A stretch of DNA of 64,000 nucleotides from Candidatus Aenigmatarchaeota archaeon (GTDB lineage Archaea; Aenigmatarchaeota; Aenigmatarchaeia; CG10238-14; SCSR01): NCBI GenBank assembly GCA_038998335.1, contig JAVZHQ010000001.1:32001-96000 (forward strand), in the 5' to 3' direction. Below are positions 12,701 through 46,663 of the stretch, one piece after another. A program made the translations under genes and the position numbers. How positions within the stretch are numbered: the stretch's first letter is position 1; each line of letters starts with the position of its first letter. The notes below the pieces were generated by a model. It saw only the letters and a program-made list of their open reading frames with translations. It was not told the DNA's origin and did no database searches.

Positions 12701-12874
12701 ATGGAAGATTTAAAGTCACTTATAGAAGAGTTAATTTTTAAAGTAAAAAGTGATGAGGAATTTTTTAGGGAGTTTATTAGCTTTCTCAAAAGGTTTGGAA
12801 AGAGAGAAATATTACTAAGGATAGTAAGGAAAATTCTTTTAGATTCTTGTAAAAATTTAAAATTTAGCGAATAG
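12701..12874 (+). CDS. Small hypothetical protein (57 aa, not in ORF track)
   Basis: MEDLKSLIEELIFKVKSDEEFFREFISFLKRFGKREILLRIVRKILLDSCKNLKFSE; fills the gap, divergent from 12647, overlaps the tpiA end. Confidence 0.45.
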   Translation: MEDLKSLIEELIFKVKSDEEFFREFISFLKRFGKREILLRIVRKILLDSCKNLKFSE

Positions 12875-13532
12875 CTTTTGCAAAATCCTCTAGAACTCTT
12901 TTTGGATTTCTAGCTTTTACTACGCCTGAAGCAACAAGAATTCCTTTTGTTCCTAAATCCAAAGCTTTTTTAACGTCTTCTCCGTTAGTTATTCCTGCTC
13001 CGCACAAAACTTTTATTTCTGGATTAATTCTGTAAATTTCTTCGACAAATTCTTTAACACTATCAGGCTTTACTTTTGATATAGCCTTTCCACTTCCGAT
13101 TAAAATAGGATCCTCGTAAGCTATAAAATTCGGCTTAAATTTTGCGATTTCCTTTCCTTTTTCCAAGCTATCAGCGCAAACTACTGAAATAAGCTTGTAT
13201 TTCCTGAGCAATTCTACACGTTTTCCTATTTCTTCTAACTCAAGCTTTTTTTCTGAATGGTTTATTAAGCTTCCTTTTACTCCGTATTCTTTTAAAACTA
13301 ACAAAGAAACGTGTCCAGTAAAAGCTCCATATTCTATTGCGTCAACGTGCTGAGCAAAAACTGGTATTTTAACTTTTCTTGCAAGATAAAGGTCGGTAAA
13401 TTGTGGAGCAATAGCTATGTTAATTCTATAGTTTCTTGCAACTTTCTCGCAAATTTTTGTTAGCTTTAAAGCATTTTCTCCTGTAGCTTCTCTGTAGCAT
13501 TTAAAGTTAACAAGTATTAAAGGAAGTTTCAT
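12864..13532 (-). CDS. tpiA: Triosephosphate isomerase (archaeal type)
   Basis: VNFKCY, AQHVD, GAFTG, INHSE, AYEDPILIGSG, CGAGI, LVASG. Confidence 0.95.
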   Translation of the reverse strand: MKLPLILVNFKCYREATGENALKLTKICEKVARNYRINIAIAPQFTDLYLARKVKIPVFAQHVDAIEYGAFTGHVSLLVLKEYGVKGSLINHSEKKLELEEIGKRVELLRKYKLISVVCADSLEKGKEIAKFKPNFIAYEDPILIGSGKAISKVKPDSVKEFVEEIYRINPEIKVLCGAGITNGEDVKKALDLGTKGILVASGVVKARNPKRVLEDFAKAIR

Positions 13533-13631
13533 AATTTATTTTGTATCAGTCAAAATAAATAATCTTTAGTAAATGTTTACCACCTTAGTGGTAGGTAAAC
13601 TACTTATTTACATACTATCAAGTGGCCTAAG

Positions 13632-14579
13632 ATGGGATCCGAAAGTCCATCAGAAAAAATAAAAATCCGTAGTTTACCTTTAGAAGAAAGAATAAGACTA
13701 TATAACAAAGCAATCGATCTACACAAAAAATATGGTTGGGGATATGTGCGCATAAGCAAAAAACTCTCTGTTCCAATAGATGTTGTCAGGCATTGGTTAT
13801 ATTATGGAAGAATTCCAATTCGCCAAGGGCATCCCCATTTATTTGAGCCAACACCAAGCCCTGAATTAGCATATGTAATAGGAGTTGTTCTAGGTGATGG
13901 AAATTTAAGTCAAAGGAAAAAAAGTGGTGAAAGGTCTGGAAGGGTAATTAGACTAAGAGCAAGAGACAAAGAATTCGTAGAAAAGTTTGCTTTAGCCATG
14001 AGCAAATTGCTCAGAAAGAGAAAACCCTACAAGGTCGTATTTGAAAATAATCAATATAGAGTTTATGGTTATAGCTTTTATCTCTTTGAATTTTTGAAAA
14101 AACAATTCGATACATTAAAACCATTCATCGAAGCTTATCCGACAGAATTTATTAAAGGTGTTGTAGATAGTGAGGGAAGCGTGAAAATAAGTGTCTGGCG
14201 ATGGAAAACTTACAGAGCTTTAACAGTAAATGTGGCTATTACAAATACAAATTTAGAATTATTGTTATATGTTCATGAGCTTTTAAGAAAACATTTAGGA
14301 ATAGAAAGTATTATTAAGCCTAGCTATAAAGCAGGAAGCAAATTTTGGAGGAATGGTAAAGAATTTACTCGCAAAAAAGACATGTATGATTTAGTAATAA
14401 CTAAATTAAATGATGTGAAACTCTTTGCTTCTCGTGTGGGGTTTTCAATAAAAAGGAAACACCAAAAGTTGCTTGATGCAATTAGGATATGTGAAGATTT
14501 CAAATCTGGGGAAGAGCGAACTGAGGCTTGGTTAAAACTTTATAAAAAGAAAAATGGAAGGTGGGCAAGAATAAAGTAA
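13632..14579 (+). CDS. Free-standing HTH + double-motif LAGLIDADG homing endonuclease
   Basis: HTH GYVRISKKLSVPIDVVRHWL; motif 1 ELAYVIGVVLGDG; motif 2 EFIKGVVDSEG; both acidic catalytic positions retained; no intein termini. Confidence 0.85.
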   Translation: MGSESPSEKIKIRSLPLEERIRLYNKAIDLHKKYGWGYVRISKKLSVPIDVVRHWLYYGRIPIRQGHPHLFEPTPSPELAYVIGVVLGDGNLSQRKKSGERSGRVIRLRARDKEFVEKFALAMSKLLRKRKPYKVVFENNQYRVYGYSFYLFEFLKKQFDTLKPFIEAYPTEFIKGVVDSEGSVKISVWRWKTYRALTVNVAITNTNLELLLYVHELLRKHLGIESIIKPSYKAGSKFWRNGKEFTRKKDMYDLVITKLNDVKLFASRVGFSIKRKHQKLLDAIRICEDFKSGEERTEAWLKLYKKKNGRWARIK

Positions 14580-14607
14580 TATTAAAGTTTAAAAACAAAT
14601 AAATAAT

Positions 14608-15734
14608 ATGAGCGAGAAAATTACGGTATCTTTAATAAAGGCTGACATAGATGGCTCATAGGAGCCAGTGTAAGCAGCCTTGTAGGGCATGGGAGAGTTC
14701 ATCCGGATATAATCAAAACAGCAGAAGAACTTTTACAAAAAGCAAAAGACGAGAATTTAATAATAGATTTTTTTGTCACCAACTGTGGAGACGATTTAGA
14801 ACTTATAATGACTCATCAAAAATTTATAGAGAACCCAGAAATTCATAAGCTTGCTTTTGATACTTTTATGAAATGCGCAGAAATAGCTAAATCCTTAAAG
14901 CTTTATGGAGCAGGCCAAGACTTGCTTAAAACTGCTTTCTCTGGCAATATAAAAGGTATGGGCCCAGGAGTTTGTGAAATAGCTTTTGAGGAAAGAAAAA
15001 GCGAGCCAATAGTTTGCTTTATGGCAGATAAAACAGAGCCAGGAGCCTGGAACATGGCTTTGTATAAAATATTTGCCGATCCTTTTAACACTCCAGGCCT
15101 AGTTATAGATCCGAGCATGCATTCAGGTTTTTCCTTTGAGGTTCATGATTTGTTTGAACATAAAAAGATAAGGTTTTCAGCTCCCTCAGAAATATATGAT
15201 TTACTTGTTTTTATAGGAGCTCCAGCAAGGTACTGTATAAAATCAGTTTTTAGGAACTCAGATAACGAAATTGCAGCTGTTTCTTCTACCGATAGGCTAA
15301 GCCTAATCGCAGGTCATTATGTGGGAAAAGATGACCCGGCTTTAATAGTAAGGGCTCAGTCTGGTTTCCCAGCTGTTGGTGAAATTTTAGAACCTTTCGC
15401 CTTTCCTTATCTTGTAGCAGGAGGAATGCGTGGTTCTCATAATGTTCCTCTCATGCCAGTAAGTTTAAAAGATGCTCATCCTACACGATTTGATGCGCCA
15501 GCCAGAGTTATAGCTTTAGGATTTCAGCTTAATAATGGAAAATTACAAGGTCCGGTAGATTTATTTGATGACCCTGCCTTCGATTATGTAAGACAAAAAT
15601 GTAACGAAATAATGGATTACATAAGAAAACACGGAACCTTTGAGCCTCATCGCTTACCCTTGGATGAAATGGAATATACAACTCTGCCAGAAGTTAGAAA
15701 AAGGCTTGAAAGTAGGTTTGAAAAATTAGGTTAG
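14608..15734 (+). CDS. fbp: Fructose-1,6-bisphosphate aldolase/phosphatase (class V FBPase); two exons 14608-14650 and 14674-15734, 367 aa after splicing
   Basis: Exon 1 MSEKITVSLIKADI(G) joins exon 2 SLVGHGRVHP...CGDDLELIMTH...YGAGQDLL...ADKTEPGAWN...YVGKDDP...GGMRGSH. Confidence 0.93.
14651..14673 (+). other. 23-nt BHB-type mRNA intron in fbp
   Basis: Outer helix AAGGCTG/CAGCCTT, central helix ACAT/GTGT, bulges AGA and AAG, inner hairpin TGGCTC-ATAG-GAGCCA. Removal restores the ADIGS motif and the reading frame. Confidence 0.88.
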
Positions 15735-44284: not shown

Positions 44285-46663
44285 ATGGTTTATGAAACTA
44301 TTGTTGGTAGACTAAAAGAAGATAGAGAAAAATTTGGAAACAAGTGCTCAGGCTACTTGGGTAAGCATATTGTTGGAACTGGCGAAGACGCTCACCTAAC
44401 AACAAAAGTTTTTATCGATTTGCTTCGATGTCATGTAATTCTAATTTCAGGAAAAAGGGGCTGTGTTACTAAGGATACACTCATTTTTACCGATAAAGGA
44501 TATAAACCAATAATGGAATTTGACAGGTTGAAGGATAAAGTTTATACCTGGAATTCTGAAACCGGTTCTTTTGAATGGACTGAGGCAAATTTGATTAGCT
44601 ACCCTATAGACGAGGAATTGTTTGAGATGGAGCTTCAAGACGGAAGAAGGATAATAGTAACCAATGATCATCCTCTTTTAACCTTTGAGGACGGCCATTT
44701 TAGGTGGAAAAAAGCCCAAGAATTGAAGGTCAACGACAGACTTGTTGTAAATTTAAAAGTTCCAGAAATAAGTAATGACAAGGAAAGCACTAGAATAGCT
44801 AGATTACTTGGTTTCGTTCTTGCCGATGGAAACATTTATATAAAAAAGGGTAAACAGAAAGATAGCAAAGGATATTGGTATAATGGAACTATAAAAAGAC
44901 TTAGAATTTTTAACGCTAATAAAAGTGTCCTACGTCAAGCTAAAAAAGATTTAGAGGAAGAATTTGGGGTTAAAGTTGGGGTTGAAAAGAGAAAAACAAG
45001 GGATGTTATTTTGCGAGTGAGAAATGGCAAAGTAATCGATAAATTTATAGAATTGGGAGTTCCTGTAGGTTCTAAGGCAGATAAAATAAGAGTACCACCA
45101 ATAGTTTGGGAGAGTTCGAATGATTTTAAAGCAAACTTCCTGAGCGCTCTTTTTTCCTGTGACGGTTATGTTGATAAAAATGGTGCGTTGTACTATTATT
45201 CAAAGTCAAGAAAATTTTTAGAAGATATTCAATTATTGCTCGCTCATTTTAAAATATTATCAACAATTAGACCAAAAATAGTGAAACTCAAGAAAAAACT
45301 GTTCATAAATTATACACTTTACATAACTGATCATTTTTCTATCGAGCAATTCAAGAAAATCGGCTTGATTCATGACAGGAAAAACAAACGATTGCAAAGT
45401 CATAAATTTAAAAAGTTTGAGATGAAGAAAGGAGTTAGATTTTTCACAGAAGAGTTAGTAGGTATTAAAATCAAAAAAATTAAAAAAGTCAAGGGAATTA
45501 AAGAAGTTTATGATCTTAACGTCCCAAAGACGCATTCTTTCTTAGCAAATGGTATCTTGTCCCATAATACAGGTAAAAGCTATGATGCAGGAGTAATAGC
45601 AGAAGAAATTGCTTCACTTCCACAAGAATTTAGAAAAAATTTAAGCGTAATTATGATAGATACTATGGGGATTTTCTGGAGCTTAAAAAAACCAAACGAA
45701 CAGCAAAAATCTTTACTTAAAGAATGGGGTCTAGAACCAAAAGGTTTTGAAAACGTGAAAGTTTTCGTTCCCTATTCTCAGCTAGAAGATTTTAAAAATG
45801 CAGGAATTCCCGTTGACGAAGGAATTTCTATTTTGCCTTATGAGTTTTCAGCCGAAGAATGGAGACTAGCTTTTAACTTAAAAAGAACAGAACCTGCAGG
45901 AATTGCTCTAGAAAAAGTTATAAACCAACTTTTAGAATCTCAACAAAATTTTTCCATAGATGATATAATAACAAAAGTTAGAGACGACAAAGAAACTTCA
46001 CAAGAAGTGAAAAGTGCTTTAGAAAACATGTTAACTGTAGCTAAGCAATGGGGAGTTTTTGGAGAAAAAGGAATTAATATAGATGATATTGTTCAACCAG
46101 GTCAAATTTCTGTGGTTGATGTTTCTAGGTTAAGGGCAACAGAAGCCTGGAGCGTTAGAAACTTTATTGTTGCTATGATAGCAAGAAAAGTTTATGAGTA
46201 TCGTTTGCTAGCAAGAAAAGAAGAGGAAATAGCAAAGCTTGAGGGAAGAAAACTTGAAAAAAGATATCCTATGGTTTGGCTTATTGTTGATGAGGCTCAC
46301 AACTTTTGTCCTTCAGATTTTGAAACAGTTTCTTCTCAACCATTTCTAACAATAGCAAAGCAAGGAAGAGAACCTGGGGTAAGCTTGGTAGTAATAACCC
46401 AAATGCCAAACAAAATTCATCAAGACATTCTAAGCCAATGTGATTTAGTAATTTCTCATCGTTTAACTTCTCGTGATGATTTACAAGCTTTGCATGCTGT
46501 TTATCAAACTTATATGGCTGAAGAAATTGAGAAAATGATTAACAAGCTCCCAAGATGGCCTGGAGCTGCTTTAATTCTTGACGATAATCTGGAAAAAATT
46601 TTTACTGTTTGCGTTAGGCCTAGACTTTCATGGCATGCAGGAGGAACTGCTGCAGTTGTTTAA
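44285..46663 (+). CDS. HerA/FtsK-like (DUF87) ATPase containing an intein
   Basis: Spliced Walker A GKRG|TGKS, IDTMG, Walker B LIVDEAH, KQGREPG, TQMP. Confidence 0.88.
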   Translation: MVYETIVGRLKEDREKFGNKCSGYLGKHIVGTGEDAHLTTKVFIDLLRCHVILISGKRGCVTKDTLIFTDKGYKPIMEFDRLKDKVYTWNSETGSFEWTEANLISYPIDEELFEMELQDGRRIIVTNDHPLLTFEDGHFRWKKAQELKVNDRLVVNLKVPEISNDKESTRIARLLGFVLADGNIYIKKGKQKDSKGYWYNGTIKRLRIFNANKSVLRQAKKDLEEEFGVKVGVEKRKTRDVILRVRNGKVIDKFIELGVPVGSKADKIRVPPIVWESSNDFKANFLSALFSCDGYVDKNGALYYYSKSRKFLEDIQLLLAHFKILSTIRPKIVKLKKKLFINYTLYITDHFSIEQFKKIGLIHDRKNKRLQSHKFKKFEMKKGVRFFTEELVGIKIKKIKKVKGIKEVYDLNVPKTHSFLANGILSHNTGKSYDAGVIAEEIASLPQEFRKNLSVIMIDTMGIFWSLKKPNEQQKSLLKEWGLEPKGFENVKVFVPYSQLEDFKNAGIPVDEGISILPYEFSAEEWRLAFNLKRTEPAGIALEKVINQLLESQQNFSIDDIITKVRDDKETSQEVKSALENMLTVAKQWGVFGEKGINIDDIVQPGQISVVDVSRLRATEAWSVRNFIVAMIARKVYEYRLLARKEEEIAKLEGRKLEKRYPMVWLIVDEAHNFCPSDFETVSSQPFLTIAKQGREPGVSLVVITQMPNKIHQDILSQCDLVISHRLTSRDDLQALHAVYQTYMAEEIEKMINKLPRWPGAALILDDNLEKIFTVCVRPRLSWHAGGTAAVV
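44462..45568 (+). mobile_element. Intein (369 aa) with LAGLIDADG homing endonuclease
   Basis: N-terminal C(VTKDT), block B TNDHP, motifs RLLGFVLADG and FLSALFSCDG, VYDLNV..HSFLANGILSHN, followed by Thr+1. Confidence 0.93.

What the first reader, a model, noticed from the sequence alone, without database searches (positions are those of the whole stretch)
13632..14681. Free-standing LAGLIDADG endonuclease directly upstream of the mini-intron: candidate two-part homing system
Seen: an intact double-motif LAGLIDADG gene ends 28 nt before the fbp start and ~70 nt before the intron. It sits between the otherwise divergent tpiA and fbp genes. Established: archaeal rRNA BHB introns often encode LAGLIDADG enzymes in their loop, and in phages free-standing endonucleases can cut intron-less alleles of a neighbouring gene, with the intron giving immunity (collaborative homing). 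Inference: the enzyme cleaves the uninterrupted AAGGCTGACATAG^GCAGCCTT site, which is pseudo-palindromic as LAGLIDADG targets often are. The 23-nt intron would disrupt that site, and both parts would spread by co-conversion. I know of no description of this for archaeal mRNA BHB introns.
Basis: inference. Interest (0 to 1): 0.82.

Follow-up and report, generated by a model that had tools for sequence, protein, structure and literature searches.

The report
Homing endonuclease paired with fbp mini-intron
A selfish DNA-cutting enzyme gene sits just in front of a sugar-metabolism gene that carries a tiny tRNA-type intron, and comparison with relatives suggests the intron shields the gene from that enzyme and travels with it, a pairing so far described only for phages.

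Summary
An intact 315-aa I-DmoI-like double-LAGLIDADG gene (13632-14579) ends 28 nt before fbp. The fbp gene carries a canonical 23-nt BHB intron (14651-14673).

The two-part homing idea gains real but indirect support.
- This endonuclease (HEG) clade lies directly 5' of fbp in all 6 loci with DNA context, in three different outer neighbourhoods.
- All 6 fbp alleles are unusual within about 20 nt of the KAD(I/V)G active-site motif. Three have BHB introns (23, 21 and 37 nt, at two sites 6 nt apart). Three have a rare Ala-to-Cys change (3 of 240 close relatives).
- None of 27 other intron-less fbp alleles in the order has an upstream HEG.
- The same genome holds a second pair, another LAGLIDADG gene abutting rtcB, which carries an 18-nt BHB intron. 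All 4 intact homologues of that HEG accompany an interrupted rtcB.
- Two further free-standing LAGLIDADG genes abut intron-bearing tRNA genes.

Cleavage, immunity and splicing are untested, and no RNA run was listed. The cited pseudo-palindrome is simply the BHB outer helix. I found nothing like this in print. Earlier notes of this scan describe similar pairs on other DNA.

The parts
12864..13532 (-). tpiA (triosephosphate isomerase), the ancestral divergent neighbour of fbp
   Evidence: ORF. Pfam TIM E 5.9e-41. It lies next to fbp in HEG-less relatives.
13533..13563 (.). Ancestral 31-nt tpiA-fbp spacer, ending in the motif CAAAATAAATAAT (13551-13563). In HEG-less alleles this motif directly precedes the fbp ATG.
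   Evidence: Sequence. Compared by eye with the spacers of G060, G019 and G012.
13564..14607 (+). Inserted HEG cassette: a 68-nt leader, the HEG and a 28-nt spacer. The spacer repeats the motif CAAATAAATAAT (14596-14607) just before the fbp ATG.
   Evidence: Sequence, repeat read by eye. G001 and G005 lose nucleotide homology to G000 exactly at 13532.
13632..14579 (+). Free-standing gene for an N-terminal helical (HTH-like) domain plus a double-LAGLIDADG homing endonuclease, 315 aa, intact
   Evidence: The HTH is inferred from homologues that hit HTH_23 and HTH_28 and from helices 17-57 of the model.
14608..14650 (+). fbp exon 1 (MSEKITVSLIKADI plus the first base of the Gly codon)
14651..14673 (+). 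23-nt BHB mini-intron. It shifts the reading frame if not removed.
   Evidence: A homologous 21-nt intron in G003 carries a compensatory A-U to G-C change in the central helix.
14638..14681 (+). The whole hBHBh' splicing motif, from outer helix to outer helix
14674..15734 (+). fbp exon 2 (class V fructose-1,6-bisphosphate aldolase/phosphatase). This is the only fbp copy found in the genome.
   Evidence: Pfam FBPase_3 E 1e-153. One match in G000.
14629..14695 (.). Inferred zone of the endonuclease recognition site in the uninterrupted gene: the codons for IKAD(I/V)G(S/G) and their neighbours. The exact site is unknown.
   Evidence: Inference. The two intron insertion points lie 6 nt apart (G000/G003 and L057). 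The rare Ala-to-Cys codon lies 8-10 nt upstream.

Best explanation
The ORF is a free-standing, I-DmoI-like monomeric LAGLIDADG homing endonuclease. Its home is the position immediately 5' of the fbp start codon, where it has hijacked the fbp promoter region.

Most likely it cuts HEG-less fbp alleles inside the DNA that encodes the invariant N-terminal active-site motif, IKAD(I/V)G(S/G). This lies about 40-70 bp from its own gene. Repair from a HEG-bearing allele then copies the HEG together with the short first exon.

Alleles that carry the HEG must be uncuttable. Here that is achieved by the 23-nt BHB mini-intron, which splits the site in DNA. The host tRNA-splicing endonuclease and RtcB ligase remove it from the mRNA, so the protein is unchanged. 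Other alleles reach the same end through a rare Ala-to-Cys codon change.

HEG and intron are therefore a linked pair that moves by co-conversion. This is an archaeal, BHB-intron counterpart of phage collaborative or trans homing. The HEG later decays while the intron stays.

Shown: the gene anatomy, the fold and catalytic residues, the BHB structure with compensatory change, and the comparative associations. Inferred: the cleavage site, the immunity, the splicing and the direction of transfer.
For: (1) The enzyme looks active. Both catalytic acidic residues are invariant and the fold matches I-DmoI, I-Tsp061I and E-DreI.

(2) It behaves as a selfish element.
- Matches at E<=1e-8 occur in 15 of 118 genomes of the order. 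Matches at E<=1e-30 occur in 9 of 371 genomes of the phylum.
- Some copies are broken: G003 has a frameshift, L057 a nonsense codon, and G038 a TAG.
- The cassette sits exactly at the fbp start and is flanked by a repeated 12-13-nt leader motif.

(3) The upstream-type HEGs form one clade with 93/92 support. They lie directly 5' of fbp in 6 of 6 loci with context: G000, G003, L055, L056, L057 and L135.
- The fbp subfamilies involved are only 42-62% identical.
- The outer neighbours differ: tpiA, PCMT, or ProRS with an unknown ORF.
- The HEG is more conserved than fbp between G000 and L055 (58% against 45%), yet far less conserved between G000 and G003 (63% against 94%). That argues for transfer between fbp lineages.

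(4) Signatures at the site.
- Introns are present in G000 (23 nt), G003 (21 nt, same site, A-U to G-C compensation, inner helix replaced but still paired) and L057 (37 nt, 6 nt downstream). All three have 4 of 4 central pairs.
- The three intron-less HEG-bearing alleles all read KCD instead of KAD.
- Among close relatives, 119 of the 120 nearest to L135's fbp and 118 of the 120 nearest to L055's fbp read KAD. One of the 3 exceptions appears to share a contig with a HEG homologue, inferred only from matching contig lengths.
- In the order, 29 fbp 5' ends were readable out of 33 genomes with fbp. The intron occurs in 2, both with an upstream HEG. None of the 27 others has an upstream HEG.

(5) A second, independent pair lies in the same genome. 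A 279-aa LAGLIDADG gene has a stop that overlaps the rtcB start, and rtcB holds an 18-nt BHB intron with two in-frame TAA in the GY|GFPIGG motif.
- All 6 homologues at >=49% identity, plus one 25-aa remnant, lie directly 5' of rtcB.
- The 4 intact ones all accompany an interrupted rtcB.
- The only intron-less rtcB has a HEG wrecked by 8 stop codons.

(6) Two more free-standing LAGLIDADG genes of G000 end on tRNA genes that carry inserts. That makes 4 of the 7 free-standing copies I counted.

(7) The locus is exchanged as a block. G001 is 92-95% identical in the flanks but holds an unalignable fbp plus HEG cassette between them. Both forms occur in the same runs.

(8) Splicing enzymes are encoded: EndA and RtcB.

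(9) The phage precedent comes from passages of PMC2790892.
Against: - No cleavage, splicing or transfer was observed. No RNA run was listed.
- G000 and G003 are congeners, so their shared HEG plus intron is one event. Independent fbp intron cases number two (the G000/G003 pair and L057). The KCD cases may be one or two events.
- HEG and intron lie 71 nt apart, so linkage alone would make them be gained and lost together.
- 3 of 6 upstream-HEG alleles lack an intron, so the intron is not required.
- Mini-introns are common in rtcB of this order. All 15 loci inspected, chosen because one search flagged them, carry one, and 8 of them have no HEG upstream. They sit at sites also used by inteins, so other endonucleases or HEG-independent processes may create them.
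- Five related HEGs lie downstream of fbp with no intron or evident signature.
- fbp third codon positions are saturated between G000 and G003 (57% identity), so no co-conversion tract can be traced.
- Whether KCD affects enzyme activity or cleavage is unknown.
Confidence: 0.6

Rival explanations
1. The HEG does home to the fbp 5' flank, but its target is its own insertion point (the leader and start-codon region) or some other nearby site. The intron and the KCD codon would then be neutral polymorphisms of donor alleles, dragged along by co-conversion, with no role in immunity.
For: The HEG cassette is inserted exactly at the fbp start and is flanked by a repeated leader motif, so insertion alone could destroy a target there. 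HEG and intron lie only 71 nt apart. In phage T4, MobE mobilises a neighbouring intron without cutting at the intron insertion site (PMC2790892, passages).
Against: Three different unusual features fall within about 20 nt of one another in all 6 HEG-linked alleles: introns at two sites, and KCD in two fbp subfamilies. These features are found in 3 of 240 close relatives and in none of 27 other alleles of the order. The same pattern recurs at rtcB. Leader sequences are not conserved between the fbp subfamilies that the clade has colonised, whereas the KAD motif is.
Confidence: 0.2
2. The protein is a domesticated LAGLIDADG-HTH protein that serves fbp, for example as a transcription regulator of gluconeogenesis or as a helper of BHB splicing (a maturase). 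It would not be a mobile nuclease.
For: It has an N-terminal helical domain, and homologues hit HTH_23 and HTH_28. It lies next to fbp in 11 loci in two orientations. I recall LAGLIDADG-derived regulators (WhiA) and group I intron maturases from the literature. I did not look them up here.
Against: - The catalytic D and E are invariant.
- The distribution is patchy: most fbp genes in the order have no such neighbour (22 of 29 readable alleles).
- Pseudogenes are frequent.
- Introns persist without the protein at rtcB (8 loci), and the protein occurs without an intron (3 fbp loci).
- The fbp plus HEG block is swapped between near-identical strains.
Confidence: 0.07
3. HEG and intron are unrelated. 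Mini-introns are simply frequent at conserved motifs in these DPANN genomes, free-standing HEGs are frequent too, and their adjacency here is chance plus shared ancestry.
For: - G000 has 31 LAGLIDADG_3 matches.
- rtcB mini-introns are widespread and often lack a HEG.
- A crude BHB scan of the genome gives 728 candidates and cannot tell how many real mRNA introns exist.
- tRNA introns are common in archaea regardless of HEGs.
Against: - Four of the 7 free-standing LAGLIDADG genes I counted in G000 abut the 5' end of an insert-bearing gene, with a gap between -10 and +28 nt.
- The fbp intron occurs only with an upstream HEG (2 of 2 against 0 of 27 in the order, plus L057).
- Intact rtcB HEGs are always accompanied by an intron (4 of 4).
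Confidence: 0.08

Closest known systems
Collaborative homing and trans homing in phages: F-CphI with the cyanophage psbA group I intron (Zeng, Bonocora and Shub 2009; Bonocora and Shub 2009), and T4 MobE with the nrdB intron (PMC2790892, passages read)
   Same: A free-standing endonuclease gene lies next to a gene whose intron has no endonuclease of its own. Cutting of intron-less alleles would mobilise both by gene conversion. Success depends on the cut site lying close to the intron.
   Different: - The host is an archaeal chromosome (DPANN), not a phage.
- The intron is a 21-37-nt protein-spliced BHB intron, not a self-splicing group I ribozyme.
- The enzyme is LAGLIDADG, whereas F-CphI is Endo VII-like and MobE is HNH.
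- The HEG sits 5' of the start codon.
- Cleavage at the intron site is not shown here.
Archaeal rRNA BHB introns that encode LAGLIDADG enzymes (I-DmoI, I-Tsp061I and others; PDB titles; 16S introns of Thermoproteales, PMC4496867, search listing only)
   Same: The enzyme subfamily is the same: I-DmoI is the best sequence hit and among the best fold matches. The intron type (BHB) and the splicing machinery are also the same.
   Different: In those cases the HEG lies inside the intron loop and the host gene is rRNA. Here the HEG is outside and upstream, the intron is too small to hold any ORF, and the host is a protein-coding gene.
cbf5 pre-mRNA BHB intron of Crenarchaeota (PMC2738675, listing and start of abstract seen)
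   Same: A BHB intron inside an archaeal protein-coding gene, gained and lost among relatives.
   Different: I did not read that paper beyond the start of its abstract, which names no endonuclease. The gene and the phylum also differ.
Free-standing homing endonucleases of T-even phages (seg and mob genes; PMC2988022, listing only)
   Same: Intergenic HEGs that cut a conserved neighbouring gene and spread with flanking markers. Resident alleles are protected by sequence differences, as the KCD alleles here may be.
   Different: Those are phage genes of the GIY-YIG and HNH families, and most involve no intron.

Membership tests
LAGLIDADG homing endonuclease, monomeric double-motif (I-DmoI-like) | Two LAGLIDADG motifs, each ending in a catalytic acidic residue | tested here: met
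   Motif 1 ...VVLGDGNL (D89) and motif 2 ...VVDSEGSV (E181) align with I-DmoI D21 and E117. Both are invariant in 14 homologues. The catalytic role of D21 and E117 is recalled. An I-DmoI E117A entry is listed.
LAGLIDADG homing endonuclease, monomeric double-motif (I-DmoI-like) | Two alpha-beta-beta-alpha-beta-beta-alpha domains forming one DNA-binding saddle | tested here: met
   AF2 pLDDT 88.4 and pTM 0.76. Foldseek matches at E 7e-10 to 1e-7 to E-DreI, I-Tsp061I, I-DmoI and I-OnuI.
LAGLIDADG homing endonuclease, monomeric double-motif (I-DmoI-like) | Site-specific double-strand cleavage of a long (about 20 bp) target | not testable with these tools
   This needs an in vitro assay.
LAGLIDADG homing endonuclease, monomeric double-motif (I-DmoI-like) | Selfish distribution: sporadic, with decaying copies, at a fixed site in a conserved gene | tested here: met
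Archaeal BHB (hBHBh') intron | A 4-bp central helix flanked by two 3-nt bulges on opposite strands, with cuts after bulge base 2 | tested here: met
   4 of 4 central pairs in G000, G003 and L057. The MFE fold of G003 is exactly hBHBh'. The cuts restore the frame and the conserved Gly codon.
Archaeal BHB (hBHBh') intron | Structure kept through compensatory change | tested here: met
   From G000 to G003 the central helix changes ACAU/GUGU to ACGU/GCGU, and the inner helix is wholly different yet still paired. Only two or three sequences are available, so the statistical weight is small.
Archaeal BHB (hBHBh') intron | Splicing enzymes are present in the genome | tested here: met
   EndA: PF01974, 95 bits. 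RtcB: PF01139, 547 bits, itself interrupted.
Archaeal BHB (hBHBh') intron | The spliced RNA is observed | not testable with these tools
   No RNA run was listed for this DNA.
Collaborative homing pair (free-standing HEG plus HEG-less intron) | The HEG is encoded outside but close to an intron that has no ORF | tested here: met
   The HEG stop lies 71 nt before the intron. The intron is 23 nt.
Collaborative homing pair (free-standing HEG plus HEG-less intron) | The HEG cuts intron-less alleles at or near the intron insertion site, and the intron-plus allele is immune | not testable with these tools
   Only indirect evidence exists: introns or the rare KCD codon in 6 of 6 HEG-linked alleles.
Collaborative homing pair (free-standing HEG plus HEG-less intron) | HEG and intron co-occur across genomes | tested here: inconclusive
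   - fbp: the intron occurs in 3 of 6 upstream-HEG alleles and in 0 of 27 others.
- rtcB: the intron occurs with 4 of 4 intact HEGs but also in 8 loci without a HEG.
- The samples are small and related.
Collaborative homing pair (free-standing HEG plus HEG-less intron) | The intron is a self-splicing group I intron, as in the described cases | tested here: not met
   The intron is 23 nt and of BHB type. This pair therefore works like the described system but is not a member of the described cases.
Intron-encoded archaeal homing endonuclease (rRNA-intron type) | The endonuclease ORF lies inside the BHB intron | tested here: not met
   The ORF ends 28 nt before the fbp start codon.

The most novel reading that the evidence does not exclude
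BHB mini-introns in archaeal protein-coding genes are born and kept as shields against homing endonucleases. Wherever a free-standing or intein-borne LAGLIDADG enzyme targets an invariant active-site motif that cannot mutate freely, a short insert that the tRNA-splicing machinery can remove breaks the DNA target while leaving the protein intact. HEG, first exon and intron then spread as one cassette, and the HEG later decays, leaving orphan mini-introns. This would explain why such introns sit at intein insertion sites (rtcB), and why fbp, rtcB and tRNA genes of this one genome each have a LAGLIDADG gene abutting their 5' end. It would also offer a route by which new introns arise in archaea.
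Probability: 0.35. Interest if true: 0.9.

Novelty: new variant of a known kind. Interest (0 to 1): 0.8.

Why it matters
How archaeal BHB introns move has been unclear, because they are not self-splicing and, apart from the large rRNA introns, encode nothing. In print, protein-coding genes with such introns are known essentially from one case, cbf5.

If a free-standing endonuclease and a 20-40-nt intron form a linked homing and immunity pair, several things follow:
- It gives a concrete, testable mechanism for the spread, and perhaps the birth, of mRNA and tRNA mini-introns in DPANN and other archaea.
- It extends collaborative homing from phage group I introns to a protein-spliced intron class.
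- It explains the block-wise replacement of core metabolic genes (fbp here) between close strains.
- It warns annotators that apparently frameshifted core genes next to LAGLIDADG ORFs may be intact.
- It supplies candidate new meganucleases with inferable targets.

Tried and rejected
- RNA evidence: no RNA holder was listed for this DNA, so splicing could not be examined.
- Genome-wide BHB scan with an ORF-merging filter. It recovers the fbp and rtcB introns but gives 728 candidates. That is too unspecific to count mRNA introns or to test enrichment near HEGs.
- Co-conversion tract. Sliding-window identity of fbp among G000, G003, G005 and G012 shows no local excess, and third codon positions are saturated.
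- Whether the rtcB HEG derives from the intein endonucleases at the same sites. Only generic similarity was found (best E 4e-4 at 24% identity), so this is uninformative.
- A C-terminal signature in fbp alleles with a downstream HEG: none seen.
- Whether the HIGN motif of cysS is a HEG-linked variant: rejected. HIGN is general in that subfamily, and the HEG is present in 1 of 30 loci. That HEG turned out to abut a tRNA gene instead.
- ARAGORN found no tRNA there. Rfam did.
- The phylum-wide search added only one genome, G125, apparently the contig already held as L135.
- Contexts of the closest database homologues P0003, P0004, P0008, P0010 and P0011, and of the KCD proteins P0132 and P0272, could not be fetched.
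- In one search my exon-2 query was one base out of frame, so only the exon-1 and HEG rows of that call are used.
- (earlier notes near this place) returned nothing.
- Literature searches found no paper pairing a free-standing HEG with a BHB intron in an mRNA. The library lacks most subscription journals, and I opened no supplements.
Full report
**What is there**

The window is G000:C1:32001-96000 of a roughly 1.0-Mb, 9-contig archaeal genome. Named relatives of its proteins are Aenigmatarchaeota (DPANN) MAGs.

- Between tpiA (12864-13532, minus strand) and fbp lies an intact 315-aa ORF at 13632-14579.
- Its stop is followed by 28 nt and then the fbp ATG at 14608.
- After 43 nt of coding sequence, a 23-nt insert (14651-14673) breaks the frame.
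- Removing the insert gives ...SLIKADIG|SLVGHGRVHPD..., as in every uninterrupted homologue.
- fbp is the only copy found in the genome.

**The endonuclease**

- Pfam finds LAGLIDADG_3, and a weak first-domain match appears.
- The best solved relative by sequence is I-DmoI, the enzyme of a Desulfurococcus rRNA BHB intron. Both motifs align, including the residues at I-DmoI D21 and E117.
- These residues (D89, E181) are invariant in 14 homologues.
- An AlphaFold model (pLDDT 88.4) matches E-DreI, I-Tsp061I, I-DmoI and I-OnuI-type meganucleases.
- It adds an N-terminal three-helix domain. Homologues hit HTH families there.
- It is therefore a monomeric, probably active LAGLIDADG enzyme, and it is not inside any intron.

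**The intron**

Parsed by the rule "central 4-bp helix, 3-nt bulges, cut after bulge base 2", the insert is a textbook hBHBh' motif: outer helix 7 bp, central helix 4 of 4 pairs, inner helix 6 bp. The fold has z = -4.2.

- The congener G003 has a 21-nt intron at the same site. Its minimum-energy fold is exactly hBHBh'.
- In G003 an exon change, ATA to GTA, is compensated in the intron (A-U becomes G-C). The inner helix is entirely different but still paired.
- Synonymous sites of fbp are saturated between the two genomes, so the structure has been maintained for a long time.
- Contigs from runs of another study carry the same HEG and intron, with one change in the intron loop and no deletion.
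- EndA and RtcB are encoded.
- No RNA run was listed.

**How the HEG sits in the locus**

In HEG-less relatives, tpiA and fbp are separated by about 31-33 nt ending in ...AAAATAAATAAT-ATG. In G000 that spacer is intact up to 13563. Then comes the cassette (leader, HEG, 28 nt), which ends with a second copy of the motif right before the fbp ATG. The HEG is therefore an insertion exactly at the fbp start, downstream of the old promoter region.

**Distribution**

- In the order (118 genomes), HEG relatives at E<=1e-8 occur in 15 genomes and fbp in 33.
- Seven HEGs lie next to fbp. Two are upstream and co-oriented (G000, G003). Five are downstream and convergent (G019, G001, G020, G062, G059).
- More distant relatives lie beside other housekeeping genes.
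- A metagenome scan kept 80 loci, and a GTDB scan gave 19. Together they add three upstream cases (L055, L056, L057), one more upstream case (L135), and two downstream ones that mirror G062 and G019.
- The upstream HEGs form one clade (93/92), and the downstream ones fall outside it.
- The upstream clade is attached to fbp genes of four subfamilies (42-62% identity to G000's) and to different outer neighbours. What it follows is the fbp 5' end.
- The HEG is more similar than fbp between G000 and L055 (58% against 45%) but much less similar between G000 and G003 (63% against 94%). That is hard to explain without transfer of the HEG between fbp lineages. This is an inference.

**The key association**

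Of 29 readable fbp 5' ends in the order, only G000 and G003 have the intron, and only they have an upstream HEG. Four further genomes were unreadable or not inspected: G042, G070, G084 and G086.

- L057 has a HEG with one nonsense codon that overlaps the fbp start by 14 nt.
- It carries a different BHB intron of 37 nt, 6 nt further downstream in the same motif, with 4 of 4 central pairs and z = -3.3.
- The three remaining upstream-HEG alleles (L055, L056, L135) have no intron, but all read KCD instead of the otherwise near-universal KAD.
- Among the 120 closest database relatives of L135's fbp, 119 read KAD. Among those of L055's fbp, 118 of 120 do. One of the three exceptions (P0239) appears to share a contig with a HEG homologue (P0005), judged only from matching contig lengths. 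The contexts of the other two are unknown.
- So 6 of 6 HEG-linked alleles are altered within about 20 nt of one another, in DNA that encodes an invariant active-site motif. They are altered in three different ways.
- The simplest reading is that the enzyme's roughly 20-bp site lies there and that each alteration makes the resident allele uncuttable.

**A second pair in the same genome**

Outside the window, at C1:119765-120604, another LAGLIDADG gene (279 aa, Pfam E 8e-24) ends in a stop that overlaps the GTG start of rtcB.

- rtcB is interrupted at GY|GFPIGG by 18 nt carrying two in-frame TAA. The insert parses as a BHB with a weak outer helix. Its fold energy alone is not unusual (z +0.7).
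- Across the order, all homologues of this HEG at >=49% identity (G093, G009, G083, G069, G102), plus a 25-aa remnant in G020, lie directly 5' of rtcB.
- The four intact HEGs (including G000's) all accompany an interrupted rtcB.
- G093 (two stop codons) and G020 (remnant) also have the interruption.
- G102, whose HEG has 8 stop codons, has an uninterrupted rtcB.
- Weaker HEG hits lie elsewhere than rtcB.
- Conversely, eight interrupted rtcB genes have no HEG upstream. Their upstream neighbours are ordinary genes or ORFs with no Pfam match.
- That is what a HEG life cycle of invasion, decay and loss would leave behind. It is equally compatible with HEG-independent introns.
- Site-A introns vary from 16 to 29 nt yet keep the central helix, with a compensatory change in G056.
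- rtcB also carries inserts at a second motif (GIGF|DINCG) and, in other genomes, inteins at GYGF|C and DIN|C. Mini-introns and inteins thus use the same few nucleotides.

**A wider pattern in G000**

Of 31 LAGLIDADG_3 matches, most lie in very long frames and are likely inteins. I counted seven free-standing genes. Four of these abut the 5' end of a gene with a BHB-type insert:
- fbp
- rtcB
- a tRNA with a roughly 31-nt anticodon-loop insert, where homology to the HEG-less strain G001 starts 5 nt before the tRNA
- a second tRNA whose 5' part is overlapped by the last HEG codons

**Block exchange**

G001 is 94.6% identical to G000 up to the tpiA start and 92.4% identical from the end of fbp onward. 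The 2.2 kb between them cannot be aligned. G001 holds an fbp only 51-53% identical, plus a downstream HEG. Both forms, and a HEG-less form, are seen in the same runs. fbp identities to G000 within one other genus range from 57 to 97%. The locus is a hot spot of replacement, as expected where homing endonucleases act.

**Limits**

- Nothing here shows cleavage, immunity or splicing.
- G000 and G003 count as one event, and the samples are small and related.
- Linkage alone would tie HEG and intron together.
- Half of the upstream-HEG alleles lack an intron.
- Downstream HEGs show no signature.
It is absent in intron-less alleles, so it is no clue to the target.

**Comparison with what is known**

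The logic matches phage collaborative and trans homing (PMC2790892, passages). The enzyme matches rRNA-intron LAGLIDADG enzymes. The intron matches the cbf5 type of mRNA BHB intron (PMC2738675, listing and start of abstract).

The combination is a free-standing LAGLIDADG gene 5' of a protein-coding or tRNA gene plus an ORF-less BHB mini-intron. I did not find it in seven full-text searches. Earlier notes of this scan report similar pairs in other genomes and widespread rtcB mini-introns. Those are unchecked AI notes and I do not count them as evidence.

**Verdict**

I rate it a new variant of a known kind, with confidence 0.6 in the homing-plus-immunity reading and interest 0.8.

Noticed in passing
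G000:C1:119765-120604 and 120826-120843 (L155 515-1354 and 1576-1593), outside the window: A second free-standing LAGLIDADG gene has a stop that overlaps the rtcB start. rtcB is interrupted by an 18-nt BHB insert with two TAA in the GYGFPIGG motif. The splicing ligase mRNA would therefore itself need splicing.
   Followed up: yes
rtcB loci L216-L235 (relatives G009 to G114): In this order rtcB carries short inserts at two or more conserved motifs, sometimes two per gene. In other genomes it carries inteins at GYGF|C and DIN|C, within about 10 nt of the mini-intron sites.
   Followed up: partly
G000:C1:370930-371550 with L237 1381-1485: A 206-aa free-standing LAGLIDADG gene ends on a tRNA gene (Rfam 42 bits) that has a roughly 31-nt insert in the anticodon loop. 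By eye the anticodon may be GCA, and cysS follows. The close strain G001 has the tRNA but not the HEG.
   Followed up: partly
G000:C1:650905-651711 (-) with L183 1331-1417 (-): The last codons of another LAGLIDADG ORF overlap the 5' part of a tRNA gene. That tRNA has a 15-nt anticodon-loop insert and, by eye, a 16-nt insert after the acceptor strand GGGACAG. EndA lies about 0.8 kb downstream.
   Followed up: partly
window 13533-15720 compared with L028 1373-3530 (G001): Two strains are 92-95% identical in the flanks but hold unalignable fbp plus HEG cassettes: HEG upstream with intron in one, a foreign fbp with a downstream HEG in the other. Both forms occur in the same sequencing runs.
   Followed up: yes
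L135 2291-2340: A 23-nt tandem duplication (ATCAGGTGTAGTGCATGAAGATT, two copies) includes the fbp start codon at the HEG-fbp junction. It may be a recombination footprint.
   Followed up: no
window 44792-45355 (C1:76792-77355): Two LAGLIDADG_3 matches lie inside a 793-aa open frame, probably an intein in a host protein. The genome has many such matches (frames of 809-2046 aa).
   Followed up: no
cysS loci L237-L266 and the table: cysS identities to G000 within its own genus are 98, 89, 49 and 48%, which suggests two gene types and replacement, as for fbp. Several genomes of families f4 and f5 show a break in the match of roughly 30-150 nt near residues 170-210, inside one open frame.
   Followed up: no
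G084:C46:2916-3963: fbp is split into two matches 4 nt apart. This could be a frameshift or a pseudogene, and I did not inspect it.
   Followed up: no
G059, L031 390-400: The fbp start codon position reads ATT instead of ATG, and the motif reads NAD instead of KAD, in an allele with a downstream HEG.
   Followed up: no
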